A DNA stretch of 64,000 bases from Geobacter sp. UBA5730 (GCA_002419465.1 DIGE01000010.1:21699-85698); one strand, 5' to 3'. Positions 13,492-36,424 are shown, numbered from the stretch's first letter. Numbers and translations: made by a program. Notes: a model not told the origin generated them from the letters alone.

Positions 13492-13524
13492 CAGGCCTGC
13501 TTTTTGTTCCGTGACCCATCCCCT

Positions 13525-14547
13525 ATGTCCATGACAATCCCCATCACCCTCGATGAACTGGTTGTTCGTTTCGGCCTCGACCCGGCGCCTTTCGGGCAGG
13601 TTGCCAGGCGGTATCCCTTTCGCCTGACCCGTTATTACGCTGGTCTGATCCAGGCACCTGATGACCCGATCTGGCGGCAGTGCGTGCCTGACCTGGCTGA
13701 GCTGGATGACGATGGACAGCTGGCGGACCCGCTGGATGAAGAGCGCCTGAGCCCGGTGCCCGGCCTGATCCATCGCTACCCGGACCGGGCGGTGCTGCTG
13801 GTCTCGAATCGTTGTGCCGTGTATTGCCGGTTCTGCATGCGGAAACGCCAGGTTGGTTGTGGTGCAACGGTGCTCGATCTGGACCGGGCTATCGACTATA
13901 TTGCCGCCACCCCAAGGCTGCGAGACATCGTTCTGTCCGGTGGTGATCCCCTGTTGCTGCCGATCGATCAGCTGCACGAGCTGTTGACACGGTTACGGGC
14001 CATTCCCCACCTGGAAATAGTCAGGATCGGCAGCCGGGCACCGGTGACGGCGCCTGACCTGATTACGCCGGAACTGTGCCGCATGCTGGCCGGGCATCAG
14101 CCGCTCTACCTCAACACCCATTTCAACCACCCCCACGAGCTGACCGCAGAGGCTGCCCGGGCCTGTGCTGCGCTGTCTGATGCCGGTATCCCGCTGGGCA
14201 ACCAGACGGTGCTGTTGAAAGGGGTGAATGACCAGCCAGCCGTGTTGGAACAACTCTTTTCCGGTCTGTTACGGTTGCGGGTGCGTCCCTACTATCTGCA
14301 CCAGATGGATCTGGTGCAGGGCACCGGCCATTTTCGTACGCCGCTGGCGCGGGGAATGGAGTTGCTTGCTGGCTTACGGGGACCGGTCAGCGGTATGGCG
14401 ATTCCTCATTTCGTGGTGGATCTGCCGGGAGGGCAGGGCAAGGTACCGCTTTTGGCGGAAACGGCACGGCCCGCGGATGCTGGCTGGTTGATTCGAAATC
14501 TGGCCGGTGAACTGGTGGAGTACCGTGATCCGCCTGCAACATCATAA
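13525..14547 (+). CDS. KamA-family radical SAM protein (lysine 2,3-aminomutase / EpmB-like)
   Basis: Radical SAM cluster CAVYCRFCMRKR, SGGDPLL motif and ~340 aa length. ATG at 13525; the ORF track starts at TTG 13504. Confidence 0.8.
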   Translation: MSMTIPITLDELVVRFGLDPAPFGQVARRYPFRLTRYYAGLIQAPDDPIWRQCVPDLAELDDDGQLADPLDEERLSPVPGLIHRYPDRAVLLVSNRCAVYCRFCMRKRQVGCGATVLDLDRAIDYIAATPRLRDIVLSGGDPLLLPIDQLHELLTRLRAIPHLEIVRIGSRAPVTAPDLITPELCRMLAGHQPLYLNTHFNHPHELTAEAARACAALSDAGIPLGNQTVLLKGVNDQPAVLEQLFSGLLRLRVRPYYLHQMDLVQGTGHFRTPLARGMELLAGLRGPVSGMAIPHFVVDLPGGQGKVPLLAETARPADAGWLIRNLAGELVEYRDPPATS

Positions 14548-14970
14548 TCGTTTGCGCATCTCCAGCACGTTGCCCCCCGGTACCCGGCGGTAGTTGACCG
14601 AATCCATCAAGGTCCGTATGATGTAAATTCCGCGCCCGCCAGTCTCCAGCAGCTCTTCTTCGTCAAAGCCAGGATCCGGGATGCTGTTCAGATCAAAGCC
14701 CTGGCCCTGATCAAAGACCTGTAGCACTAACTCGTTGTCGCTGATGGTAATCCTGATGTCCACCTGTTTGTCCGGATCACCGGCATTGGCATGCCTGATG
14801 GCATTGACCATCGCCTCGGTCAGCACCACGTTCAACTGGTTGGCCAATGCTTCCCGGTCGCCACTAAAGCCTTGCAGTTGCAGGGCCAGGTCTTCGCCGA
14901 TCCGGCCAATCAGGCTTAAATAACAGGTCTGGTTGGGCACCTTGATCTGAATCTCTAGTTCATTCTTCAT
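14542..14970 (-). CDS. Anti-sigma regulatory factor, RsbW/SpoIIAB-type serine protein kinase
   Basis: 142 aa with a GHKL ATPase N-box (EAMVNAIRHA), G1 (DQGQGFD) and G2 (GGRGIYI). Confidence 0.85.
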   Translation of the reverse strand: MKNELEIQIKVPNQTCYLSLIGRIGEDLALQLQGFSGDREALANQLNVVLTEAMVNAIRHANAGDPDKQVDIRITISDNELVLQVFDQGQGFDLNSIPDPGFDEEELLETGGRGIYIIRTLMDSVNYRRVPGGNVLEMRKRL

Positions 14971-15003
14971 GGGCGTTCAGTTCCGTAGCTGCGTTGGTTG
15001 TCG

Positions 15004-15339
15004 TCAAAAGGAGGCCAGGGCGTCGTCCATGGTCGTATAGATCTCAAAGACGCGATGCAGCCGGGTCAATTCGAACATCGATTTGACCTGGCTCTGTAGC
15101 CCGGAAAGCTTCAGGTCAGCCTGGCGGGCCGAGGCGTTTTTAAAACCGGAGACCAGAGCACCCAGCCCTGAGCTGTCTATAAAACGCACTTCCTTAAGAT
15201 CTACCACTACACCGGATTTGCCAGCCCCAAACAAGTTATTCAGCGTCTGTTTCAGTTCGTCGGCGTTGTGGGCATCCAGCCGTTCCTCTTTCACCTGTAG
15301 CAATACAATCGCGCCTTGTTCCTCTTGCTTGATATTCAC
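15004..15339 (-). CDS. STAS-domain anti-sigma-factor antagonist (RsbV/SpoIIAA-like)
   Basis: 111 aa. The phospho-acceptor context FIDSSGLGALV is present. Confidence 0.88.
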   Translation of the reverse strand: MNIKQEEQGAIVLLQVKEERLDAHNADELKQTLNNLFGAGKSGVVVDLKEVRFIDSSGLGALVSGFKNASARQADLKLSGLQSQVKSMFELTRLHRVFEIYTTMDDALASF

Positions 15340-15355
15340 GTGTCCACTCCTTTCG

Positions 15356-18300
15356 TTAGGTCAATATTTTCAAGACCACCATGGAAACATCATCCTGTAG
15401 CGCCTCTGTGCCGCTGAACTGCTGCACCTGAGTATAAAATGAATCAGCAATCCGCCCTGCCGGTTCATGGCCGATTTCGGCCAGATGCCGGCACATCCGC
15501 TCGGTGCCGTACAGCTCCCCCTGCGCGGTCATGGCCTCGGGGATGCCGTCGGTGTGGAAGAAGATCACATCACCAGCCTGTAGTGCGATAACCTGTTCCT
15601 CAAATACCACATTTTGTTTGATGCCCAGAATCAGCCCTTCGGCATCCAGTTCACGGCAGCTGGTCTCGCCGGGACGATGGATCAGCGGTCGATTATGTCC
15701 GGCATTGGCATAGGATAGCCGACCGGTGGCTGCATTGTAGCGGGCATAGAACATGGTGATGAACAGTTCGGCCCGGCTCAGGTCTTCATAGAGCTGGTTG
15801 TTGAGTGAACTCAGAATCAGACTGGGGCTGGTTGCCTGGTTGGCCTGGGCCCGCAGCAGGGTGCGCACCTCTGCCATGATCAGGGCAGCCCCCACACTGT
15901 GACCGGAGACATCGGCAATCAACAGGTCAATGGTCTGCTCATCCCGTTTAAAAAAATCATAGTAGTCGCCTCCCACATGGGTGGCGGCGATGCAGCGTCC
16001 AGCCAGCTCAATGCCGAAGATTTCCGGAGGGTTTTCAGGCAGCAGTGAAAGCTGGATCTGTTGAGCGATCTCCATATCCCGCATCAAGCGCGCCTTGTCC
16101 AGTTGTGCCTGCTGCATTTTGCGCCGGGCGGCCTCGCGGGCCTCCATTTCTCCCATCAGGCGGGCAGCCTGGGCCAGTTGGCCGGTGAGGCTGGTCAACA
16201 GGCTGATGAACTCCTCGGTAAAGAGCCCAACAATGTTTTTGGAGTAGACCGACAGGACTCCCAGGCTTTCTTCGCCCTCGCGGAAGATCGGCACATGGGC
16301 AAAGGAGACAAACCCTTCAGCCCGGGTCTTGGCGATCTCCACTACTCCGTCCGCCAGTTTGATGTCGTTCACCAGATGGGCCCGTTGGTCAATCATCGCC
16401 TTCTTGAAATAAGGCTCACTCTCCCGATACCAGTGCTCCGGAGTGATCGGCCGACGGTTGGTTCCCTGGTAACTGATCACCTCAAGGGGGAAGTCGCTGT
16501 TTTTGCGCAACTGGATCAGACCGGCATCCAGTTTGAATTCTTTCAGCAACAGCTGTAACAGATCGTCGCAGATTGTCTGCAAATCCAGGGTCCGGTTCAT
16601 GATTTCGGAAGCCTTCAGCCGCACGAACAGCGCTTCACGGCTTTGGTCAAGCGAGGTGCGAACCGTGCTGAAGATATCGTAGACCGATTCCATCCGGCTG
16701 CCCATGTCGGAAAGATAGCTGTCCACAATGGCACCGGCAGCGGCTGCCCCCACCGAGCCGGCCAGAGTCCGCTCAACGAACCGTTTCAGGCCCGGCAGTT
16801 CAAATTCATCACCGGCATTGTCAGGGGCCAGACGACGTTCTTTCTGGTAGTTTTCCAGGGCGCGCTTGGCTTCGGCTTCGCCGATAAATTTGCCCAGCAG
16901 TGCGGTGAATTGGGGGATAGTGACCGGTTTTGACAGACGTTTGGCTGCCGCCCGGTAGGCTCTGGCCTCCTGTTCAAAGCTGCCGATAAAACGATGAACC
17001 TGTTCTTTCTCTCGTTCCGACTGTGGTAAAAGCAGCGAGCAGATCAGATAGGCGCCCGTGTTGAAGAGCATGCTCCAAAACAGGGAGTGGCTCCACATAT
17101 CCATACCGATCAGGCCAAACAGCGCGGTGGGTTTGAGCAGGGTAATGGCAAAGGGACCGTTCTGCAGAAAAGAATGCAGTTCCGGCGTAGCAAAGAGCGA
17201 AGGTATCAGGAGTGTGTAGGCCCAGAGTATAAATCCCAGACTCATGCCGCTGATGGCGCCTGACTTGTTGCCGCGTTTCCAGTAGATGCCCCCCAGCAGG
17301 GCCGGCAGGAACTGCATGGCAGCGGAAAAAGAGATCAGGCCCATATTGACCAGCATGAAGGAGTCCCCCACCAGGCGATAGTAGAGGTACCCCATGAAGA
17401 CCACCAGAAAGATGCCGAATCGTTTCAGGTTGATCAGGAGCAGTGGAAACCACTGTTTTGGTGTGATCCGCACGATGATCGGCATGAACAGGTGGTTGAG
17501 CAGCATGGTGGAGATGGCCACCGACTCTACCATTACCATGCCGGCTGCAGCTGAAAGTCCCCCCAGGAAGGCCAGTAATGCGATGCTGTTGTTGTTGGCC
17601 ATCAGTGGCAGACTGATAACAAAAAAATCGGCCCCGACAGAACTTCCGGTCAGCAGTACGCCCCCCAGGGCGATCGGCATGATAAACAGGTTGATCAGGA
17701 ACAGGTAGGCGGGAAAGAGCCACATCGCTGTCTTGACATGGCCGATATCGGCGTTTTCTATCACCATGACATGAAACTGGCGTGGCAGGAGCATGATGGC
17801 CCCCATGGACATCAGCAACATGGTGACAGAGGGGATTGAGCCGTTGCCCGGCTGGGTGTCAAGGGTCATCAGACGGATGAACTGTTCGGGAAAACGGGCC
17901 TGGAATTGCTCGAAGATGTCACTAAAGCCGTTGAACAGGCCCCAGGTAATAAAAATGCCCACTCCCAGCAGACTGATCAGTTTGACCAGTGATTCAAAGG
18001 CCACTGCGGCGATCAGGCCTTCGTGACGATCAATGGAGGAGAGTCGGCGGGCGCCGAAGATTACCCCGAAGACCGAGAGTATGATGGCCAGCACCAGTCC
18101 GGTGGGAAGGGCGACCGGCTCAGCGGCGCCGGGCAGGGCGATGGTGCGGCTGGTGACTCCGCTGACCAGTGCGAAAGAGGTGGAGACCGCCTTGATCTGC
18201 AGGGCTATGTACGGCATGATCCCCAGCGTGGCGATCAGGGTGACCAGGGTGCCCAATGGCTGCGATTTGCCGTAGCGCAGACTGATAAAATCGGCAATGG

Positions 18301-18604
18301 AGGAGACGTTGGATTCTTTGCTGATCCGGATCATCCGCTGTAAGATAAAATGCCAGGAGAAGGCAGTCAGGGTTGGTCCCAGATAAATCATCAGAAAATC
18401 TATTCCGCTGGTAGCTGCCTTGCCGACACTGCCGTAGAAGGTCCAGGAGGAACAGTAGATTGCTATCGAAAGCGCATAGACCAGCGGGTTGTTGACAATA
18501 CTCTTGCCCGCGTCACGGCGACGGCCGGCAAACCAGGCGACCAGAAACAGCAGCCCGGTATAGCCAACCGCAATAGCAGCTACTTGTAGCAAGTCGAGGG
18601 TCAC
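15356..18604 (-). CDS. Sodium:solute symporter-domain sensor fused to GAF and a PP2C/SpoIIE serine phosphatase
   Basis: 1082 aa. The N-terminal ~560 aa is a polytopic SSS-like membrane domain. A GAF-like middle region and a coiled coil follow. The C-terminus is a SpoIIE/PP2C domain (GGDYYDF...ADVSGHSVGAAL...FHTDGIPE...DDVSMVVLK). Confidence 0.82.
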   Translation of the reverse strand: MTLDLLQVAAIAVGYTGLLFLVAWFAGRRRDAGKSIVNNPLVYALSIAIYCSSWTFYGSVGKAATSGIDFLMIYLGPTLTAFSWHFILQRMIRISKESNVSSIADFISLRYGKSQPLGTLVTLIATLGIMPYIALQIKAVSTSFALVSGVTSRTIALPGAAEPVALPTGLVLAIILSVFGVIFGARRLSSIDRHEGLIAAVAFESLVKLISLLGVGIFITWGLFNGFSDIFEQFQARFPEQFIRLMTLDTQPGNGSIPSVTMLLMSMGAIMLLPRQFHVMVIENADIGHVKTAMWLFPAYLFLINLFIMPIALGGVLLTGSSVGADFFVISLPLMANNNSIALLAFLGGLSAAAGMVMVESVAISTMLLNHLFMPIIVRITPKQWFPLLLINLKRFGIFLVVFMGYLYYRLVGDSFMLVNMGLISFSAAMQFLPALLGGIYWKRGNKSGAISGMSLGFILWAYTLLIPSLFATPELHSFLQNGPFAITLLKPTALFGLIGMDMWSHSLFWSMLFNTGAYLICSLLLPQSEREKEQVHRFIGSFEQEARAYRAAAKRLSKPVTIPQFTALLGKFIGEAEAKRALENYQKERRLAPDNAGDEFELPGLKRFVERTLAGSVGAAAAGAIVDSYLSDMGSRMESVYDIFSTVRTSLDQSREALFVRLKASEIMNRTLDLQTICDDLLQLLLKEFKLDAGLIQLRKNSDFPLEVISYQGTNRRPITPEHWYRESEPYFKKAMIDQRAHLVNDIKLADGVVEIAKTRAEGFVSFAHVPIFREGEESLGVLSVYSKNIVGLFTEEFISLLTSLTGQLAQAARLMGEMEAREAARRKMQQAQLDKARLMRDMEIAQQIQLSLLPENPPEIFGIELAGRCIAATHVGGDYYDFFKRDEQTIDLLIADVSGHSVGAALIMAEVRTLLRAQANQATSPSLILSSLNNQLYEDLSRAELFITMFYARYNAATGRLSYANAGHNRPLIHRPGETSCRELDAEGLILGIKQNVVFEEQVIALQAGDVIFFHTDGIPEAMTAQGELYGTERMCRHLAEIGHEPAGRIADSFYTQVQQFSGTEALQDDVSMVVLKILT

Positions 18605-18861
18605 TGGGGTGGCTGCTCCTCAACGGTCTGCTGGTCAGATTCGGTGGCCTGGGTAAACAGGTAGATGACACCGATGGAGGCAGCCCATCCAACGGTAAAA
18701 TAGAGAAAAAGCAGGGGAAATCCCAAGATACTGATCGGTTGATTGAAAATTTTGAGAAAGGGGAAGTTGATCATCACATTCCCCATGATGAAGAAAATAA
18801 TCCAGGATTCACGCAGTTGCAGGCGTTTCAACAAGCGATGTCGGGTCGAACGCCAGATCAT
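18601..18861 (-). CDS. Small two-TM membrane protein, resembling symporter small subunits (DUF4212-like)
   Basis: 86 aa. Its stop overlaps the start of the SSS-PP2C gene by 4 nt. The hydrophobic core ILGFPLLFLYFTVGWAASIGVIYLF recalls small subunits that precede SSS permeases. The family assignment is from memory. Confidence 0.55.
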   Translation of the reverse strand: MIWRSTRHRLLKRLQLRESWIIFFIMGNVMINFPFLKIFNQPISILGFPLLFLYFTVGWAASIGVIYLFTQATESDQQTVEEQPPQ

Positions 18862-19060
18862 GGGGCACCCTCTGTTTATCCGCTGTTAGGTTTGGCTGGC
18901 CTTTGGCACCCGTGCCGCAGACATAGGCAATACTACCATTGAAGCAAGGGCCGTGCAACCACGAGCCTTCTGCCGGTGGATTCGTTTGACGCTCCGTCGG
19001 GATATGTGGTAGCGTCTGCATCAATCAACGCCCCATTTTTTCTTGCCCGGAAGGTGCCAC

Positions 19061-20758
19061 ATGCTGCGCATGCTGCTGCTTCTCCTGATAACCGTTTTGG
19101 TGTCAGCCTGTACCGGTCTGCGTGCTGCGGACGACCCGTCGCTTGCTGCACCTCCTCTTTCCCGCAGTGCCATCAGTCTGTATGCCCAGTCGCGTCTGGC
19201 GGTGAATGAAGGCGATGCTGAGCGGGCCCTGCGGTTGTTGCGCGAGGCACAGGCGGCTGATCCCGGTTCTGGCCTCCTCTATGTGACCGAAGCCGAGATC
19301 CGTCTGAAAGGCAATCAGGTTGCCGAAGCGTTGATCCTTGTGGACAAGGCTATCAAGGCCGAACCTGGCAACCGTGATGCGCACCTGTTGGGGGGCACTA
19401 TCATGGCTACCCTGGGCCGTGACCGTGAGGCGGCAGGCTATCTGCGTACAGCGGTTAACCTTGATCCCGCGAAAGAGGATTCGGTGCTGCTTTTGGTGGA
19501 TAGCTTGCTGAAACTCTTTGAATACGAAGAGTCGGTGACGGTCCTGAAGGAGCTGATCCGTCTGAAGCCGGATTCGGCAGTCGGGTATTACTATCTGGGC
19601 AAGACCTACAGTCAGATGAAACTTTACCGCGAAGCGGTGGGCTTTTATAAACGATCCCTGGAACTGCGCCCCGACTTTTTTCAGGCGGCAATCGATCAGG
19701 CTGTGTCCCTTGAGGCGTTGGGGGAATACGATCAGGCTGTTGCCGCTTACAAGGCGCTGATTGATGATACCGAGAATCGGGCACCGCTGGTGAACCACCT
19801 GGTCCAGCTGCTGATCCAGCAACGGCGTTATGATGATGCTCTGATCTACCTTAACAAGCTGACCACCATGGGGTTGGGTAGTAGCGAGGTCAAGCGCAAG
19901 GCCGGTCTGATTTATCTCGAGTTGGGCCGCCATGACGATGCGATCCGTGTCTTTACTGACATGCTGACCAAGGAGCCGGATGCCCATCAGATCCGCTTTT
20001 ACCTTGGCTCTGCCTATGAGGAAAAGGGTGATTATGACCGGGCCAAGGCCGAGTTCAGCAAGATTCCGGCAGATGCCGATATTTATGCTGAAACATTGGG
20101 ACATCTGGCTTTTATCCTCAAGGAGCAGGAGCGGGAGGATGAAGCGGTGCAACTGTTGCAAAAAGGGATCACCGTATACCCGGACCGGCTGGAGTTGTAC
20201 CTGAGTCTGGCCACCCTCTACGACGCCATCGATAAAGATGATGAGGGGCTCAAGCTGTTACTGGGGGTTGATGCCCGTTTCAGCGCTGATCCCCGCTTCC
20301 AGTTCCGGTTGGGGGTGCTTTACGATAAGTTGGGCAAGAAGCCGGACTCGATCAATCGGATGAAGCGGGTGATTGAGCTGAGTCCCCGCGATGCCCAGGC
20401 CCTGAACTATCTTGGCTACACCTACGCTGAAATGGGCGTTAATCTTGAAGAGGCGTTGGGATATATCAAGCGAGCCCTGGAAGTCAGACCCGATGACGGC
20501 TTTTTTATCGATAGTCTGGGATGGACCTATTACCAGTTAAAACGCTATGACGAAGCGGTCAAGCAGCTTGAGCGGGCAGCCGAGCTGGTGTCCGACGACC
20601 CGACAGTGCTGGAACATCTGGGGGATGCCTATCTGGCCCGCAAAGATTTCAAAAAGGCGCACAAGATGTATAAAAAAGCCCTGGACCTGGATGCCAATAA
20701 AAAGCAGTTGGGAGATAAGATCAAGCGGGCGTTGAAAGGTGAACCGGCCGAACGATGA
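19061..20758 (+). CDS. TPR-repeat lipoprotein
   Basis: ATG at 19061 gives the lipobox LVSACTG. TPR repeats run throughout the protein. Confidence 0.8.
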   Translation: MLRMLLLLLITVLVSACTGLRAADDPSLAAPPLSRSAISLYAQSRLAVNEGDAERALRLLREAQAADPGSGLLYVTEAEIRLKGNQVAEALILVDKAIKAEPGNRDAHLLGGTIMATLGRDREAAGYLRTAVNLDPAKEDSVLLLVDSLLKLFEYEESVTVLKELIRLKPDSAVGYYYLGKTYSQMKLYREAVGFYKRSLELRPDFFQAAIDQAVSLEALGEYDQAVAAYKALIDDTENRAPLVNHLVQLLIQQRRYDDALIYLNKLTTMGLGSSEVKRKAGLIYLELGRHDDAIRVFTDMLTKEPDAHQIRFYLGSAYEEKGDYDRAKAEFSKIPADADIYAETLGHLAFILKEQEREDEAVQLLQKGITVYPDRLELYLSLATLYDAIDKDDEGLKLLLGVDARFSADPRFQFRLGVLYDKLGKKPDSINRMKRVIELSPRDAQALNYLGYTYAEMGVNLEEALGYIKRALEVRPDDGFFIDSLGWTYYQLKRYDEAVKQLERAAELVSDDPTVLEHLGDAYLARKDFKKAHKMYKKALDLDANKKQLGDKIKRALKGEPAER

Positions 20759-28500: not shown

Positions 28501-29883
28501 TCAGCCTACCTCGGCGTACTCGCGTACCCGGAACTGCACCCCCAGGGATTCAGCCAGTCTGCGGCAGGCCTCCATGTCAACCCCCGGCACGGTGACCGCC
28601 GTAGCGGTTACGTCGGGGATGTAACGGGGGGCATCCCGCAGGAAGTCGCAGACCCCGGCGAAGCCCGCCTCGCCGAAGGGGGTGTTGCAGAGCCGACCAT
28701 AGGTAACGGCATCCGGAGCATTCAAGCTGATCGAGATGCTGTCAACCAAGCCTTCTAACTCAGGCAGGATGTTGCGGCCATGCACCAGGTTGGCCTGGCC
28801 ATCGCTATTGATCCGAATCGGGAATCCCCGTTTTTTCAGGGCTGTTGCCACCTGTTTGACCAGTTCCAGCCGCAGCAGTGACTCACCAAACCCACAGAAC
28901 ACCACCTCATCGATCCCTGTCGGTTGACCAATGGCAGCCATCACTTCCCCAAAGCCGGGTTCATGGTCCAACAGCAGGTTGTGCCCCTTGACGGTGAACT
29001 CATCAAACTTTGCACAGAATGTACAGCTGTTTGAACAGCGATTGGTGATGTTCAGGTAGAGGGAGTTGCGGATCCGGTAGGCGATCTTGCTTGATTCGTC
29101 CCACAGCGGAATGTTGAACAGCCGCCCGGCATTCATGGTGGTAATCCGCCCCACGTCATCCAGTGTCAACCCCTTCAGTTCAGCCACCTTTTCTGCCGTA
29201 ATCAGGGTATAGGCCGGTTCGTTACGCCTGCCCCGGTGTGGCACCGGCGGCAGGTAGGGGCAGTCGGTTTCCAGCAGCAACCGCTCCATCGGCATGGCCT
29301 GCACGACATCCCGCAGTTGCTGATTGGAAGGGTAGGTTACCGTGCCGGGGATCGAGATGTACAACCCCTGCTCCAGGCACTGGCGGGCAAAGTCACTATC
29401 ACCGGAGAAACAGTGCATTACCCCTTTGGTTACCCCGGCGGCCTTGATCTGCCCCAGGGTCTCCTGATGGGCGTCACGGTCATGAATTACCACCGGCTTG
29501 TCCAATTCCAGGGCCATCTGCAAAAAATGGCCGTACACGGTCCGTTGGGGGTCTCGCGGGGCTCGGTCGCGGTAGAAATCCAGGCCGATCTCGCCGATGG
29601 CAACGCATTTCGGGGTTGTCTGGGCCAGATGCTTGATCTCGCTGATGGTGGCTGCCGTGGCTGTGGCGACATCGTGGGGGTGAATCCCCACGGTGCAGTA
29701 GAGCTGCTCGTACCGGACGGCCAACTCCACGGCCTGTCTGCTTGATGCTAGATCGGCACCCACCACCACCATGCCCCGCACCCCGTTTTGGGATGCACGG
29801 GCCAGCATCTGTTCCCAATCCGCCTCAAAATCAGGGTAGTAGAGATGACAATGGCTATCTATCAAGCTGAGTTTTTGATCCAT
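28501..29883 (-). CDS. Fusion protein: TatD-family metal hydrolase plus TatD-associated radical SAM domain
   Basis: ATG at 29883 (MDQKLSLIDSHCHLY, the TatD HxH motif). The N-terminal ~260 aa are TatD-like. The C-terminal ~200 aa carry the CxxxCxxC cluster CSNSCTFC. Confidence 0.82.
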   Translation of the reverse strand: MDQKLSLIDSHCHLYYPDFEADWEQMLARASQNGVRGMVVVGADLASSRQAVELAVRYEQLYCTVGIHPHDVATATAATISEIKHLAQTTPKCVAIGEIGLDFYRDRAPRDPQRTVYGHFLQMALELDKPVVIHDRDAHQETLGQIKAAGVTKGVMHCFSGDSDFARQCLEQGLYISIPGTVTYPSNQQLRDVVQAMPMERLLLETDCPYLPPVPHRGRRNEPAYTLITAEKVAELKGLTLDDVGRITTMNAGRLFNIPLWDESSKIAYRIRNSLYLNITNRCSNSCTFCAKFDEFTVKGHNLLLDHEPGFGEVMAAIGQPTGIDEVVFCGFGESLLRLELVKQVATALKKRGFPIRINSDGQANLVHGRNILPELEGLVDSISISLNAPDAVTYGRLCNTPFGEAGFAGVCDFLRDAPRYIPDVTATAVTVPGVDMEACRRLAESLGVQFRVREYAEVG

Positions 29884-29893
29884 CAATGCGTCC

Positions 29894-30280
29894 CTATTGA
29901 GCAGCAGGCAGGTTGTCAACCTCACGCAGTGCTCGTTTGATGGCCCGTATGTCGAAGCCGTCCACCACCTGCTTGCCGTTGTCAAACACGATCACCGGCA
30001 CAATGTCGCCCTGCCAGGTCTTGTGCCACTCGTTGTAATAGATTTTGTTGCGCTTGATATCGCGGACCTCAAAAGGCAGTGCAAGCATGGCGAAATACCT
30101 TTCCGCCTTGGCGCAGTAGCCTCAGCCATAGGCCGTGTAGATGACGATCCGTTCCTTGGCCGGGATGGTGAAGTGCGACGGGGCAGGGGGAGTGGACGTA
30201 GCTGCCAGGGCGCTTGCAAGGGGAAACAGGGCGACGACGGAGAGGATAGCGGCGATTGATCTGAGTTGAAGAGTCAGCAT
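29894..30280 (-). CDS. Secreted glutaredoxin-like protein with in-frame TGA (probable selenocysteine) in a U-G-Y-C active site
   Basis: Hand translation from ATG 30280 gives MLTLQLRSIAAILSVVALFPLASALAATSTPPAPSHFTIPAKERIVIYTAYG-TGA(30122..30124)-GYCAKAERYFAMLALPFEVRDIKRNK... This continues in frame into listed ORF 29894..30088. The TGA replaces the first Cys of a Grx CGYC motif. Confidence 0.6.
30082..30110 (-). promoter_or_regulatory. SECIS-like stem-loop downstream of the in-frame UGA
   Basis: The mRNA segment CAAG-GCGG-AAAGGUAUU-CGCC-AUG-CUUG lies 12..40 nt after the UGA. Two short stems (CAAG/CUUG and GCGG/CGCC or GGCGG/UCGCC) close a G-containing apical loop. The fold was done by eye only. 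Confidence 0.4.
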
Positions 30281-34345: not shown

Positions 34346-36424
34346 TTACGGACGGGTTGCAACTCCAGTAGTTGCATTTGCATTCAGCCATAGTGCGGCT
34401 TCGGGATAAGCTGTAACCATTGCAGGGCTAAGGGTAATAGTGCCATCCAATACCCCGTTATCCATCCAGTCAATGGAGTCAAAGATAAGCCGTTTGACAT
34501 AAGTTCTGTTATGAACATATGCAGCAGGTTCGTCAGCGTAAATCTTGGCATTTTGATAGGCACCATAGGCATTGTCTGGAACTGCAGTAGTGTCGCTATA
34601 GTTGCCGGCTCCGATCGCAAGATTCAGGTAGTTTATATAACCTGCCAAGTTTGAAACGTAGTTGTTCAGGATTGTTGTTGCCTGGTTGTAACCAAGTTTT
34701 TCTTCATCGAGTTTGGCTACAGACATTTCATAGGCAGAACCAACAGTGTGGCAGGTATTGCAGAGTGCCTGATTGGTAATAGTTGTTCCGGTAACGGCAG
34801 CAAAGCTATGGCTCTTGTTGCCCATATGGCAGCTTGCGCAAGGACCAGACTCATTCAGACCAATCTTGTCATGCTGGAAGTGGGTAGTTGCATTAGTATA
34901 ATCTTTGCCAGCATATTCCCAGCCAATATGGGATTTTTCATTGAACATGAAGCCTGCAGTAGGAGCGTGATGTCCTTGGAATCTGCTGCTACGCGGGCTC
35001 TCCACGTTGCCGCGACCACCATGGCAGGTTGCACAGGCGGTTGATTTTCCAAGTCCGGTAATGACAACTGTCTGTCCTTGGTAGGTAAAGTCAAGTACTG
35101 CCTTGGTGGTGTTACGCAGGGTGCCTTTGCCGGCATTGCTGTGGCAACCCCAGCAATAGAGCACTTCTTTCTGTCCTGACGGCACGGTTGCAACGCCTGT
35201 AGAGGCCTTTACCCAACCAGACAGATGAGAGAAGTCATTACCTGCACCGGTGTTGTCGTACGTATCCGGGTTACTCAGGAAATTTGCGGCACCGGTTGCG
35301 GTGTGACATTTCTGGCAGGCACCACGATCTGGTGTGCCATCAGCTTTGGTTGTTTGCGTCCAAGGGTAATGTACCCATGCGTCACCAGTTGTGCTGTCAG
35401 CGCCTGCTGCCAGAACCGTAGCTACACTGGTAGCATTGGCATACTTCTGGGCTAGGATTTTGCCGGCATGGCTTGATTGAGACCAATCCGTGTAGATGGA
35501 CGGAGTTGTTGTAGCGCCGTACCGTGTACCGGTTTTTGCCTCATGCCCATGGCAGTCAAAGCAAGGGTTTTCACCCTTCATACGAATGTTGTAGCCTTCA
35601 ATTATTGCCGTTGTTGTTGGGTCATCATAGTGTGTGGTTGCAATGATACGATACCAGCTGGTTGGGTGGTATCCAACGGCGCCAGTCACTGCGCCGTTTA
35701 CTGTGGTTACGCCGTCTGCCAGCAGTTTGCTGCCGTTGTAGTTGTACATGGTGTGGCAGCTGGTGCAGAGGTTGAACTGGTTGTTTTTAGCACCGCTGGT
35801 TTTGCTGGGGTTCCAGGCAACGATGTTACCTGTAGTATCTTTTGCCAAAACACCGCGTAATCCACCGCCATGCTCATGGCAGGTCTCACACTTCATGCCG
35901 GTATATGCGCCGGTATATGCAGGAGGAAGACCACCAGCAATTACAGTGTTATCGCCGGTATAACCACTCTTGTTGGACAGTACGGCACCTTCATGGGTAT
36001 GGCAACGTACGCATACGCCGGAGGTGTGAGATGGCGTACCTTCAGCATGGTTGGATGTTTCAAATGCTGTATTGGCATTGGTTGCCTGGGCTGTCACGCC
36101 GTCATGACAGGTTGCACAGCGATTGGCATCTGGATTTGGGTAAGGGATCGGGCCAACGCCGTTGTGCTGGGCGCCGCCGCCGTGGCAGCTCTCACAACCA
36201 AGCCCTTCTTGGTTGTGAGGTGACGTCAACTGGTACTGGGTGATCTTGCTTTCGCCAGTCAGGGCCTCGGTAACAGCACTGTGGCACTGGATACAAGCTG
36301 TATCGCCGACGGTTGCCACGTTGTTGATCGATCCGCCAGACTTGCTGGACGAACCGCAGCCATACAGCAGTGCCGCCATCGGCAGCAGACAAAACAGCGT
36401 GATGGCTAATCTTCGCATCTGCAT
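34346..36424 (-). CDS. Dodecaheme c-type cytochrome lipoprotein (OmcB-like outer-surface component of a porin-cytochrome conduit)
   Basis: 692 aa with lipobox LLYGCGSS. I counted 12 CxxCH motifs by hand: CIQCH, CESCH, CATCH, CVRCH, CETCH, CTSCH, CFDCH, CQKCH, CWGCH, CATCH, CASCH and CNTCH. Confidence 0.88.
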   Translation of the reverse strand: MQMRRLAITLFCLLPMAALLYGCGSSSKSGGSINNVATVGDTACIQCHSAVTEALTGESKITQYQLTSPHNQEGLGCESCHGGGAQHNGVGPIPYPNPDANRCATCHDGVTAQATNANTAFETSNHAEGTPSHTSGVCVRCHTHEGAVLSNKSGYTGDNTVIAGGLPPAYTGAYTGMKCETCHEHGGGLRGVLAKDTTGNIVAWNPSKTSGAKNNQFNLCTSCHTMYNYNGSKLLADGVTTVNGAVTGAVGYHPTSWYRIIATTHYDDPTTTAIIEGYNIRMKGENPCFDCHGHEAKTGTRYGATTTPSIYTDWSQSSHAGKILAQKYANATSVATVLAAGADSTTGDAWVHYPWTQTTKADGTPDRGACQKCHTATGAANFLSNPDTYDNTGAGNDFSHLSGWVKASTGVATVPSGQKEVLYCWGCHSNAGKGTLRNTTKAVLDFTYQGQTVVITGLGKSTACATCHGGRGNVESPRSSRFQGHHAPTAGFMFNEKSHIGWEYAGKDYTNATTHFQHDKIGLNESGPCASCHMGNKSHSFAAVTGTTITNQALCNTCHTVGSAYEMSVAKLDEEKLGYNQATTILNNYVSNLAGYINYLNLAIGAGNYSDTTAVPDNAYGAYQNAKIYADEPAAYVHNRTYVKRLIFDSIDWMDNGVLDGTITLSPAMVTAYPEAALWLNANATTGVATRP

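What the first reader, a model, noticed from the sequence alone, without database searches (positions are those of the whole stretch)
14542..18861. Partner-switching cascade whose input phosphatase is fused to a sodium:solute symporter domain
- The operon encodes four proteins:
  - a small two-TM subunit, with a 4-nt overlap into the next gene;
  - a 1082-aa SSS-transporter-domain/GAF/PP2C(SpoIIE) fusion;
  - a STAS antagonist with the DSSG phospho-site;
  - an RsbW-type kinase.
- SSS (SLC5-like) domains are known as sensory inputs to histidine kinases such as CbrA in Pseudomonas and CrbS in Vibrio, which control carboxylate/acetate metabolism.
- Here the same kind of input domain is wired to a Ser/Thr partner-switch instead.
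- No sigma factor or other obvious output partner is encoded nearby, so the target of the RsbW-like kinase is unknown.
- Acetate is the central electron donor for this clade, so a transporter-like solute sensor controlling a partner switch is a plausible regulator. I am not aware of it being characterised.
Basis: partly seen in the sequence, partly recalled or inferred. Interest (0 to 1): 0.65.

Follow-up and report, generated by a model that had tools for sequence, protein, structure and literature searches.

The report
Transporter-like sensor fused to PP2C phosphatase
A four-gene operon of a Geobacter-type bacterium encodes a relative of the Pseudomonas nutrient sensor CbrA, with CbrA's small partner peptide, joined to a protein phosphatase instead of a kinase and followed by the two proteins that phosphatase would switch; databases hold this wiring but I found no study of it.

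Summary
On the minus strand, 18861-14542 holds four tightly packed genes:
- an 86-aa two-helix membrane peptide;
- a 1082-aa fusion protein whose GTG start overlaps the peptide's stop (GTGA);
- a 111-aa STAS protein with the DSSG phospho-serine motif;
- a 142-aa RsbW-type kinase.

The membrane domain is a close homologue of the SLC5 domain of the Pseudomonas sensor kinase CbrA (E 7e-72 to the cryo-EM chain). It is followed by a STAC domain, a GAF domain, one long helix and an intact PP2C domain. The small peptide belongs to the family of CbrX, the peptide that binds CbrA's SLC5 domain in that structure.

The nearest paralogues share everything up to the long helix and then carry a histidine kinase, so this is an output swap. 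The STAS and kinase genes follow the phosphatase in every related locus with enough DNA. No sigma factor lies in the 64 kb window.

The sodium site is replaced by a lysine, as in proton-coupled CbrA. The ligand and the output are unknown, and nothing supports acetate. A 2021 review and automatic annotations already note the architecture. I found no experimental study.

The parts
18601..18861 (-). CbrX-family small membrane peptide (86 aa, two TM helices, basic N-terminus). Its stop overlaps the start of the next gene by 4 nt.
   Evidence: Searches give the ORF and the junction. It belongs to a family of small 2-TM ORFs found upstream of 58/77 SLC5-STAC genes, against 5/318 control gene starts. 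Profile-profile match to true CbrX: 94.6%, E 6.8e-8, with shuffles at 2% or less. No Pfam or NCBIfam model exists.
15356..18604 (-). 1082-aa fusion protein: SLC5 (13 TM) - STAC - GAF - long helix - PP2C (SpoIIE/RsbU type).
   Evidence: Orthologues of 66-90% identity and the same length occur across Geobacteraceae.
17015..18604 (-). SLC5/SSS transporter-like domain (residues 1-530).
   Evidence: E 7e-72 to the CbrA SLC5 domain in PDB 10ed_A. AF2 model pLDDT mostly above 90; Foldseek top hits are all SLC5 carriers. Hydropathy and DSSP are consistent with 13 TM helices.
17981..17983 (-). Codon of K208, the equivalent of CbrA K196, the lysine that occupies the Na2 cation site.
   Evidence: Alignment to 10ed_A. 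Invariant in 61 sequences that include the CbrA clade. Role of K196 from preprint PMC13022988.
16694..16921 (-). STAC domain (residues 562-637), a helical bundle.
   Evidence: A profile of this region hits the CbrA STAC domain, residues 524-593 of 10ed_A, at E 1.9e-5. Helices 563-574, 576-590, 603-618 and 620 onward in the AF2 model. FIGEAEA lies at the position of the published LGPxxA motif.
16166..16588 (-). GAF domain (residues 673-813).
   Evidence: Pfam GAF_2, E 3e-11. E 3e-43 to PDB 2qyb, a 181-residue chain deposited as 'Membrane protein, putative' that aligns to this GAF region.
16043..16165 (-). Linker helix between GAF and PP2C (residues 814-854; it is part of one continuous helix, 797-854).
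   Evidence: AF2 full-length model. Similarity to the histidine-kinase paralogues ends here. Compare the coiled-coil linker mechanism of RsbU, PMC12143880.
15365..15940 (-). PP2C/PPM phosphatase domain (residues 889-1080) with all metal-binding Asp residues.
   Evidence: Pfam SpoIIE, E 2e-50, profile positions 2-191 of 192. D880, D898, D1019, D1071 and D1072 are invariant. pLDDT 80-89.
15004..15339 (-). Single-domain STAS protein (anti-sigma-antagonist type), the presumed substrate.
   Evidence: Pfam STAS, E 9e-21. TIGR00377 at 80.4 bits, above its 53.45 cut-off. Closest solved structure is TM1442.
15172..15174 (-). Codon of Ser56 in the IDSSGLG motif, the predicted phosphorylation site.
   Evidence: Read from the translation. 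It aligns with DSAGLG of TM1442. That this serine is the phospho-site follows from established knowledge of SpoIIAA/RsbV.
14542..14970 (-). RsbW/SpoIIAB-type serine kinase (142 aa, GHKL fold).
   Evidence: Pfam HATPase_c_2, E 3e-29. Best solved relative is B. subtilis RsbW, 6m36_A, E 5e-11. NCBIfam RsbW models are hit well below their cut-offs.

Best explanation
This is an output-swapped relative of the CbrX-CbrA 'transceptor'.

Anatomy (shown):
- A small two-helix peptide of the CbrX family is translated together with a 13-TM SLC5 domain.
- The cation site of that domain holds a lysine, so it is of the proton-coupled type, not the sodium type.
- A STAC bundle follows, then a cytoplasmic GAF domain.
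- A long helix leads into an intact PP2C phosphatase, where the nearest paralogues carry a histidine kinase.

Mechanism (inferred):
- The peptide docks on the SLC5 domain, as CbrX does on CbrA, and may help two sensor molecules pair.
- Solute binding or transport in the SLC5 domain is passed through STAC. It is combined with whatever the GAF domain binds.
- This changes the packing of the long helices of a dimer, which turns the phosphatase on or off, as proposed for RsbU-type phosphatases.
- The phosphatase removes the phosphate that the RsbW-type kinase puts on Ser56 of the STAS protein.
- The unphosphorylated STAS protein then binds the kinase or another partner and changes the activity of a target encoded elsewhere.
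- No sigma factor is kept next to these genes in any related locus. I therefore think a non-sigma target, or the STAS protein itself acting as the output (as in HsbA, SypA or BtrV systems), is somewhat more likely than a classical anti-sigma arrangement.

The sensed solute is unknown.
For: - SLC5 domain: E 7e-72 to the CbrA cryo-EM chain. SLC5 fold by AF2 and Foldseek.
- K208 corresponds to CbrA K196 and is invariant. Its role is described in PMC13022988.
- STAC: E 1.9e-5 to the CbrA STAC domain.
- Small peptide: one family in 58/77 loci against 5/318 controls. hhalign to CbrX is 94.6%, with shuffles at 2% or less. CbrX is bound to TM3/TM8 of CbrA in the structure, and AlphaFold models place it at the dimer interface.
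- Translational coupling: 4-nt overlap here, 1-4 nt overlaps or small gaps in relatives, and a 17-nt overlap with demonstrated coupling for cbrX-cbrA.
- Output swap: alignment to SLC5-STAC-GAF histidine kinases runs to residues 815-862 and then stops. Of 44 sampled family representatives, 32 have a HATPase_c (kinase-type ATPase) domain and 25 also HisKA, so most are histidine kinases; 3 have PP2C and 2 GGDEF/EAL.
- The PP2C catalytic residues are intact.
- Single helix 797-854, and the coiled-coil linker model for PPM phosphatases.
- The STAS and kinase genes lie directly downstream in L001, L006, L008, L010 and L011. In L002 the STAS gene is there but the contig ends before a kinase could follow. 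None of about 70 kinase-type loci has them.
- No sigma-70 family ORF in the window or in the flanks of related loci.
Against: - No expression, phosphorylation, binding or transport data exist. No RNA runs were found.
- For CbrA itself the membrane domain is dispensable for signal detection when the soluble part is overproduced, and CbrX is not needed for function. The SLC5 and peptide parts may therefore modulate rather than sense.
- Similarity of the small peptide to true CbrX is only visible at profile level. Single-sequence and profile searches of PDB sequences did not retrieve a CbrX chain.
- STAC and linker confidence in the AF2 models is low (pLDDT 45-73).
- Dimerisation was not modelled.
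Confidence: 0.6

Rival explanations
1. Conventional anti-sigma cascade. The RsbW-type kinase sequesters a sigma factor encoded elsewhere in the genome (for example a FliA- or RpoS-type factor). The dephosphorylated STAS protein releases it, exactly as in RsbU-RsbV-RsbW-SigB.
For: The STAS protein passes the anti-sigma-antagonist model TIGR00377. The kinase is most like B. subtilis RsbW and SpoIIAB among solved structures. The domain set and gene order match rsbU-V-W.
Against: No sigma-70 family ORF lies in the 64 kb window or in the flanks of the related loci checked. In classical systems the sigma gene is usually in the same operon (established knowledge). The NCBIfam RsbW and SpoIIAB equivalog models are hit far below their cut-offs (57.6 against 145 bits).
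Confidence: 0.3
2. The cytoplasmic GAF domain is the only real sensor. The SLC5 domain and the small peptide are a working transporter or a membrane anchor that places the phosphatase at the membrane and carries no signal.
For: In P. putida a CbrA without its TM domains still responds to carbon availability when overproduced, and CbrX is dispensable. GAF-PP2C proteins without membrane domains are common, and GAF-linked phosphatases such as C. difficile RsbZ are established. The GAF region closely matches a separately crystallised 181-residue chain, 2qyb (E 3e-43), so it folds as a stable independent domain.
Against: The SLC5-STAC-GAF trio is conserved as a unit across output types. STAC docks on the transporter base in CbrA. 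The SLC5 domain is more conserved than the cytoplasmic linker regions. The CbrX-like peptide is kept in three separate phosphatase-type lineages.
Confidence: 0.2
3. The fusion protein mainly regulates transport. The phosphatase and partner-switch proteins feed back on solute uptake through the SLC5 domain, rather than the transporter informing gene regulation.
For: The authors who named STAC proposed that it regulates solute transport. The CbrA SLC5 domain does transport histidine.
Against: There is no precedent for STAS/RsbW proteins acting on an SLC5 carrier. The paralogues with kinase and GGDEF outputs argue for outward signalling.
Confidence: 0.07

Closest known systems
CbrX-CbrA of Pseudomonas putida (SLC5-STAC-PAS-histidine kinase with a small upstream peptide; cryo-EM PDB 10ed, preprint PMC13022988)
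   Same: - Homologous 13-TM SLC5 domain (35% identity, E 7e-72).
- Lysine in the Na2 site.
- STAC domain after TM13.
- A small 2-TM peptide gene upstream that overlaps the sensor gene.
- Seven of nine pocket residues are identical.
   Different: - The output is GAF plus PP2C phosphatase instead of PAS plus histidine kinase.
- The partners are a STAS protein and an RsbW-type kinase instead of the response regulator CbrB.
- Pocket positions A56 and F248 of CbrA are Thr and Ser here, so the ligand need not be histidine.
- The peptide is 86 aa rather than 58 aa and is similar only at profile level.
CrbS/MxtR and RpuS (SLC5-STAC hybrid histidine kinases that control acetate or pyruvate use)
   Same: Same sensor family and the same logic: a transporter-like input fused to a signalling output.
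   Different: Those are two-component kinases with a known response regulator. I made no sequence comparison with them here, and no link of the present protein to acetate was found.
RsbU-RsbV-RsbW of Bacillus subtilis and other partner-switching systems (RsbZ of C. difficile; HsbR-HsbA, SypE-SypA, BtrU-V-W)
   Same: A PP2C phosphatase, a STAS protein with the DSSG serine and a GHKL serine kinase in one operon. A long helix leads into the PP2C domain, as in the RsbU coiled-coil model.
   Different: The input is an integral-membrane SLC5-STAC-GAF module. No sigma factor gene is linked. The RsbW equivalog thresholds are not met.
Streptomyces 'Na+/proline symporter/serine phosphatase RsbU/anti-sigma factor' fusions (e.g. 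WP_404715882.1; the class noted in review PMC7918813)
   Same: SLC5-STAC-like input, GAF and PP2C, with a CbrX-like small ORF 4 nt upstream.
   Different: - The RsbW-type kinase is fused to the C-terminus there.
- No STAS gene lies within 4 kb.
- Its SLC5 domain is closer to other family members than to the Geobacter group, so it is probably a separate fusion event.
SGLT1/2-MAP17 and other SLC5 carriers with a small accessory subunit
   Same: An SLC5 fold plus a small membrane partner.
   Different: MAP17 is an unrelated small accessory protein of a eukaryotic carrier that has no signalling domain. This comparison rests on structure titles and general knowledge only.

Membership tests
SLC5 / sodium:solute symporter family (Pfam PF00474) | Match to the family profile above the curated threshold | tested here: inconclusive
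   21.1 bits against a cut-off of 22.8, but over profile positions 11-406 of 406. Some orthologues carry a precomputed PF00474 hit and most do not.
SLC5 / sodium:solute symporter family (Pfam PF00474) | LeuT-type fold of SLC5 carriers | tested here: met
   AF2 model of residues 1-665 has pLDDT 80 and pTM 0.82. The top 37 Foldseek PDB hits are all SLC5 members (NIS, SGLT, SiaT, SMCT1, CHT1, DUR3, vSGLT); LeuT comes later.
SLC5 / sodium:solute symporter family (Pfam PF00474) | Na2 sodium-binding site | tested here: not met
   K208 aligns with CbrA K196, whose side chain fills the Na2 site in the proton-driven CbrA. The lysine is invariant in 61 relatives. The other Na2 ligands were not mapped.
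SLC5-STAC sensor family (CbrA/CrbS type) | SLC5 domain homologous to that of CbrA | tested here: met
   E 7e-72 over residues 1-470 against 10ed_A.
SLC5-STAC sensor family (CbrA/CrbS type) | STAC domain directly after the last TM helix | tested here: met
   A profile of residues 556-662 with homologues hits CbrA residues 524-593 at E 1.9e-5. The helical bundle is predicted at low confidence.
SLC5-STAC sensor family (CbrA/CrbS type) | C-terminal two-component (histidine kinase) output | tested here: not met
   There is no HisKA or HATPase_c in the 1082-aa protein. The output is PP2C. Literature already allows GGDEF outputs in this family.
CbrX small peptide | Small two-helix membrane peptide encoded directly upstream of, and overlapping, the SLC5 sensor gene | tested here: met
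   86 aa, two hydrophobic helices, 4-nt overlap. CbrX is 58 aa with a 17-nt overlap.
CbrX small peptide | Sequence relationship to CbrX | tested here: met
   hhalign of the 37-member family (A3) against 3 CbrX sequences (A4) gives 94.6%, E 6.8e-8. The reversed control gives 0.1% and 40 shuffles give 2% or less. Single-sequence searches fail.
CbrX small peptide | Physical complex with the SLC5 domain | not testable with these tools
   Only single chains could be modelled. The complex is known for CbrX-CbrA from cryo-EM.
PPM/PP2C phosphatase, SpoIIE/RsbU subfamily | Profile match and the metal-binding aspartates | tested here: met
   PF07228, E 2e-50, full length. D880, D898, D1019, D1071 and D1072 are invariant in 8 diverse and 40 close homologues.
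PPM/PP2C phosphatase, SpoIIE/RsbU subfamily | Phosphatase activity on a phospho-STAS substrate | not testable with these tools
   This needs biochemistry.
Anti-sigma-factor antagonist (STAS, SpoIIAA/RsbV type) | Family profile above threshold and a conserved phosphorylatable serine | tested here: met
   TIGR00377 at 80.4 bits (cut-off 53.45) and PF01740 at E 9e-21. IDS56SGLG aligns with DSAGLG of TM1442.
RsbW/SpoIIAB anti-sigma factor kinase | GHKL kinase domain of the RsbW type | tested here: met
   PF13581, E 3e-29. Best PDB hit is RsbW, 6m36_A, E 5e-11.
RsbW/SpoIIAB anti-sigma factor kinase | Equivalog-level match to RsbW or SpoIIAB | tested here: not met
   NF003144 at 57.6 bits against a cut-off of 145, and TIGR01925 at 48.6 against 135.
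RsbW/SpoIIAB anti-sigma factor kinase | A cognate sigma factor that it binds (usually co-encoded) | tested here: not met
   phmmer with RpoD and SigF probes finds no sigma-70 family ORF in the 64 kb window, and the flanks of related loci hold none. A sigma factor elsewhere in the genome cannot be excluded.

The most novel reading that the evidence does not exclude
The CbrX-SLC5-STAC(-GAF) unit is a portable transceptor cassette. In Geobacter-type bacteria it reports availability of a nutrient directly, through serine phosphorylation of a STAS protein, to a target that is not a sigma factor, so that it controls metabolism or respiration after transcription. The CbrX-like peptide is a universal, so far unannotated subunit of all such sensors, needed to pair two sensor molecules.
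Probability: 0.3. Interest if true: 0.7.

Novelty: new variant of a known kind. Interest (0 to 1): 0.5.

Why it matters
- **A natural experiment in domain swapping.** CbrA-type 'transceptors' are a current structural question: how does a transporter talk to a cytoplasmic signalling domain? Here the same peptide-SLC5-STAC-GAF input drives a phosphatase instead of a kinase, and the swap point lies in the linker helix. This fits the recent proposal that coiled-coil linkers make sensor modules exchangeable between kinases, cyclases and PP2C phosphatases. It also offers a second, easily assayed read-out (STAS phosphorylation) for transporter-to-output coupling.
- **A conserved, unstudied regulator.** For Geobacter biology this is a conserved membrane nutrient sensor with an unknown target.
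- **The small peptide is widespread.** CbrX has been described only for Pseudomonadaceae. Its family accompanies most SLC5-STAC sensors in many lineages and has no Pfam or NCBIfam model.
- **Censuses undercount the architecture.** Pfam SSF scores this subfamily at or below its threshold, so domain-architecture censuses miss these proteins.

Tried and rejected
- **Genome scan:** the single-protein scan of genome contigs gave only two close MAG loci and three unrelated PP2C hits, so it was little use for distribution.
- **CbrX in PDB sequences:** phmmer and a family profile of the small peptide did not retrieve the CbrX chain. The link needed real CbrX sequences fetched from Pseudomonas-like contigs and profile-profile comparison.
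- **Curated families for the peptide:** Pfam and NCBIfam hold no model for the small peptide or for CbrX. Only chance-level DUF3311 and DUF4212 hits appeared.
- **RNA evidence:** no RNA run holds the locus, so co-transcription is inferred from spacing only.
- **Promoters and terminators:** the scan gave nothing above the shuffled expectation.
- **First AF2 run:** the full-length model, built on a shallow alignment of close orthologues, was poor for the membrane part (pLDDT 64). I used it only for the PP2C domain and the linker helix. A second run with a more diverse alignment fixed the SLC5 domain.
- **Literature:** searches for the Geobacter orthologue, PDB 2qyb and SSS-PP2C partner switching found no functional study.
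- **Acetate as ligand:** considered and not adopted. Neither the neighbourhood (TPR protein, family-5 solute-binding protein, DUF2721, aconitase B, KamA-like radical SAM) nor the pocket residues point to it.
- **Histidine as ligand:** considered and not adopted. The two pocket positions specific to the CbrA clade differ here.


Full report
**1. Observation**

The minus strand between 18861 and 14542 carries four ORFs:
- 18601-18861, 86 aa;
- 15356-18604, 1082 aa;
- 15004-15339, 111 aa;
- 14542-14970, 142 aa.

The stop of the first and the GTG start of the second share GTGA. The other gaps are 16 and 33 nt, so this is a compact operon. The kinase gene ends 6 nt inside the end of a convergent KamA-like radical SAM gene.

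Pfam finds the following:
- in the large protein, SpoIIE/PP2C (E 2e-50, full profile), GAF, and a full-length but sub-threshold SSF match (21.1 against 22.8 bits);
- in the third protein, STAS (E 9e-21);
- in the fourth protein, HATPase_c_2 (E 3e-29).

NCBIfam places the third protein in the anti-sigma-antagonist superfamily above threshold. It places the fourth protein near RsbW and SpoIIAB but far below their equivalog cut-offs.

**2. The membrane domain is CbrA-type**

- A sequence search of all PDB chains with residues 1-560 returns one strong hit, 10ed_A 'histidine kinase', at E 7e-72 over residues 1-470.
- I identify this chain as the P. putida CbrA SLC5-STAC construct of a 2026 cryo-EM preprint. 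Its 606-residue length and the residue numbers the preprint gives fit it (PMC13022988).
- Identity is 35%.
- An AlphaFold model of residues 1-665, built on a diverse alignment, has pLDDT 80 and pTM 0.82. Its best PDB matches are exclusively SLC5 carriers: NIS, SGLT1/2-MAP17, SiaT, SMCT1, CHT1, DUR3 and vSGLT.

**3. Cation and ligand sites**

The preprint shows that CbrA's Na2 site is filled by K196, in line with proton-driven histidine uptake. It lists the pocket residues Y51, S53, W55, A56, F71, Y75, F248 and F406.

- Here K196 corresponds to K208, which is invariant in 61 sequences including the CbrA clade.
- Six of the eight pocket residues are identical.
- A56 is Thr and F248 is Ser in this protein, in all 40 orthologues (two have Ala in place of the Ser) and in most of the 48 nearest family representatives. 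The CbrA clade is fixed for Ala and Phe.
- The domain therefore looks like a competent proton-type carrier or receptor of a large subfamily whose ligand need not be histidine.
- Nothing points to acetate.

**4. STAC, GAF, linker and PP2C**

- **STAC.** A profile of residues 556-662 and homologues hits the STAC domain of CbrA (residues 524-593) at E 1.9e-5. The published STAC motif LGPxxA has its counterpart in FIGEAEA.
- **GAF.** The GAF domain matches PDB 2qyb, a chain deposited as 'Membrane protein, putative', at E 3e-43.
- **Linker.** A single helix spans residues 797-854 in the full-length model, which is reliable only for the cytoplasmic end.
- **PP2C.** The PP2C aspartates (D880, D898, D1019, D1071, D1072) are invariant in eight diverse and forty close homologues. 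The second refutation test therefore also fails.

**5. The small peptide is a CbrX relative**

cbrX is a 58-aa two-helix ORF that overlaps cbrA by 17 nt and is translationally coupled to it (PMC6591292). In the cryo-EM map CbrX is bound to TM3 and TM8 of the SLC5 domain, and AlphaFold models place it at the dimer interface.

- A metagenome scan with a family alignment gave 80 loci.
- In 58 of the 77 loci with upstream DNA, a small ORF with two hydrophobic helices ends within 40 nt of the sensor gene's start. For other long ORFs in the same loci the figure is 5 of 318.
- These ORFs form one family, with the consensus RLvALFLLGxxLFNyPLLxlFNxxxxxxGiPlLYxYLFxxWxxLI. The window's peptide belongs to it.
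- I recovered true CbrX from a Pseudomonas-like contig, and relatives from Endozoicomonas and Pseudazoarcus.
- The profile-profile comparison gives 94.6% probability and E 6.8e-8. The reversed control gives 0.1% and 40 column shuffles give at most 2%.
- No Pfam or NCBIfam model covers either group.

**6. Family context and output swapping**

- The SLC5 domain finds 1407 clusters (at 50% identity) with E below 1e-30.
- Of 44 sampled representatives, 32 carry a HATPase_c (kinase-type ATPase) domain and 25 also HisKA, so most are histidine kinases. Three carry PP2C and two carry GGDEF/EAL.
- The closest non-orthologous full-length relatives (e.g. from Deferrisomatales) are SLC5-STAC-GAF-HisKA-HATPase proteins. 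BLAST alignment to them runs from residue 1 to 815-862 and stops inside the linker helix.
- This is the modular exchange through a coiled-coil linker proposed for PPM phosphatases, kinases and cyclases (PMC12143880).
- Two other phosphatase-type lineages exist. One is a Streptomyces protein with the RsbW-type kinase fused to its C-terminus. The other is a protein from an unnamed lineage. Their SLC5 domains are closer to other family members than to the Geobacter group, which suggests repeated fusions. Both keep a CbrX-like ORF upstream.

**7. Conservation of the operon and the missing output**

- Orthologues of 66-90% identity and nearly constant length occur in Trichlorobacter, Oryzomonas, Geobacter sp. 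and many MAGs.
- Trichlorobacter ammonificans has the same four genes and the same neighbours.
- More distant orthologues (49-56% identity) from metagenomes again carry the peptide gene, and the STAS and kinase genes lie directly downstream wherever the contig extends far enough. In one close locus (L002) the contig ends after the STAS gene. None of about 70 kinase-type loci has them.
- Beyond the four genes, only a TPR protein and a family-5 solute-binding protein recur upstream. The downstream genes differ.
- The target is therefore encoded elsewhere or is not a sigma factor.

**8. Mechanism**

Shown:
- the domain anatomy and the homologies;
- intact catalytic and phospho-acceptor residues;
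- genetic linkage of the four genes.

Inferred from established knowledge of CbrXA, RsbU/V/W and SpoIIE:
- the peptide binds the SLC5 domain;
- ligand- or transport-linked motions pass through STAC, and together with GAF they alter the linker helices of a dimer;
- PP2C activity against Ser56-phosphorylated STAS changes;
- the kinase opposes it;
- the unphosphorylated STAS-kinase interplay controls a distant target.

Because the sigma gene is absent from all loci, I rate a non-sigma output (as in the HsbA, SypA and BtrV systems; my own knowledge) slightly above a classical anti-sigma role.

CbrA data warn that the membrane part may only modulate a cytoplasmic sensor. That is the main rival on the input side.

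**9. What is known and what is new**

- SLC5-STAC kinases are established: CbrA, CrbS/MxtR and RpuS.
- A 2021 review notes SSS proteins with GAF, PP2C_SIG and HATPase_c in Actinobacteria and concludes that SSS sensors are not always linked to kinases (PMC7918813).
- Annotation pipelines already label some proteins 'Na+/proline symporter/serine phosphatase RsbU'.
- I found no study of the Geobacter-type operon, of its STAS/kinase partners, or of CbrX-like peptides outside Pseudomonadaceae.
- This is a new variant of known kinds, not a new kind.
- Most orthologues lack a precomputed PF00474 hit, which may be why Pfam/SMART-type censuses overlooked them.

**10. Verdict**

Interest is moderate. 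It is a clean natural output swap of a transceptor that is currently under structural study, with an unknown ligand and target.

Noticed in passing
L007-L086 (metagenome loci), e.g. L047:394-606, L053:1051-1248; window 18601-18861: A family of small two-helix ORFs sits directly upstream of most SLC5-STAC sensor genes whatever their output: 58 of 77 loci, against 5 of 318 control gene starts. CbrX has been described only for Pseudomonadaceae. This wider family has no Pfam or NCBIfam model, and I assessed it by my own ORF scan rather than from gene annotation.
   Followed up: yes
L091:3791-7621 (Streptomyces albogriseolus contig): This SLC5-GAF-PP2C protein has the RsbW-type kinase fused to its C-terminus, and a 68-aa CbrX-like ORF ends 4 nt before it. 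No STAS gene lies within 4 kb. The neighbours are a monomeric isocitrate dehydrogenase and an MscS channel.
   Followed up: partly
window 15356-18604 and orthologues P0002-P0120: Pfam SSF (PF00474) scores this sensor subfamily at or just below its gathering threshold. Most orthologues therefore carry only GAF and SpoIIE in precomputed annotation, and domain-architecture censuses will miss the transporter domain.
   Followed up: partly
window 13504-14547 (+) and 14542-14970 (-): A KamA-like radical SAM gene (Radical_SAM plus LAM_C) converges on the kinase gene, and the two coding regions overlap by 6 nt at their 3' ends. The same gene follows the operon in Trichlorobacter ammonificans but not in more distant orthologous loci.
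   Followed up: partly
window 28501-29985 (-): A 494-aa ORF combines a full TatD-type DNase/hydrolase domain (residues 42-291) with a radical SAM domain (residues 311-479). It may be a fusion or two adjacent genes read together, because the ORF was taken from the first possible start.
   Followed up: no
window 34346-36424 (-): A 692-aa multihaem cytochrome (cytochrome c7, MtrC/MtrF-like and paired CXXCH motifs), as expected for a Geobacter-type genome.
   Followed up: no
L088:1760-4944: In this Pseudomonas-like metagenome contig the cbrA reading frame is split into 653-aa and 326-aa pieces, and the start of cbrX is disrupted. This is probably a long-read assembly error rather than biology.
   Followed up: no
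window 14400-19100: Near-identical DNA is present in hydrocarbon, groundwater, sludge and freshwater metagenomes from several studies, so the organism is widespread in such habitats. No RNA run could be found.
   Followed up: partly
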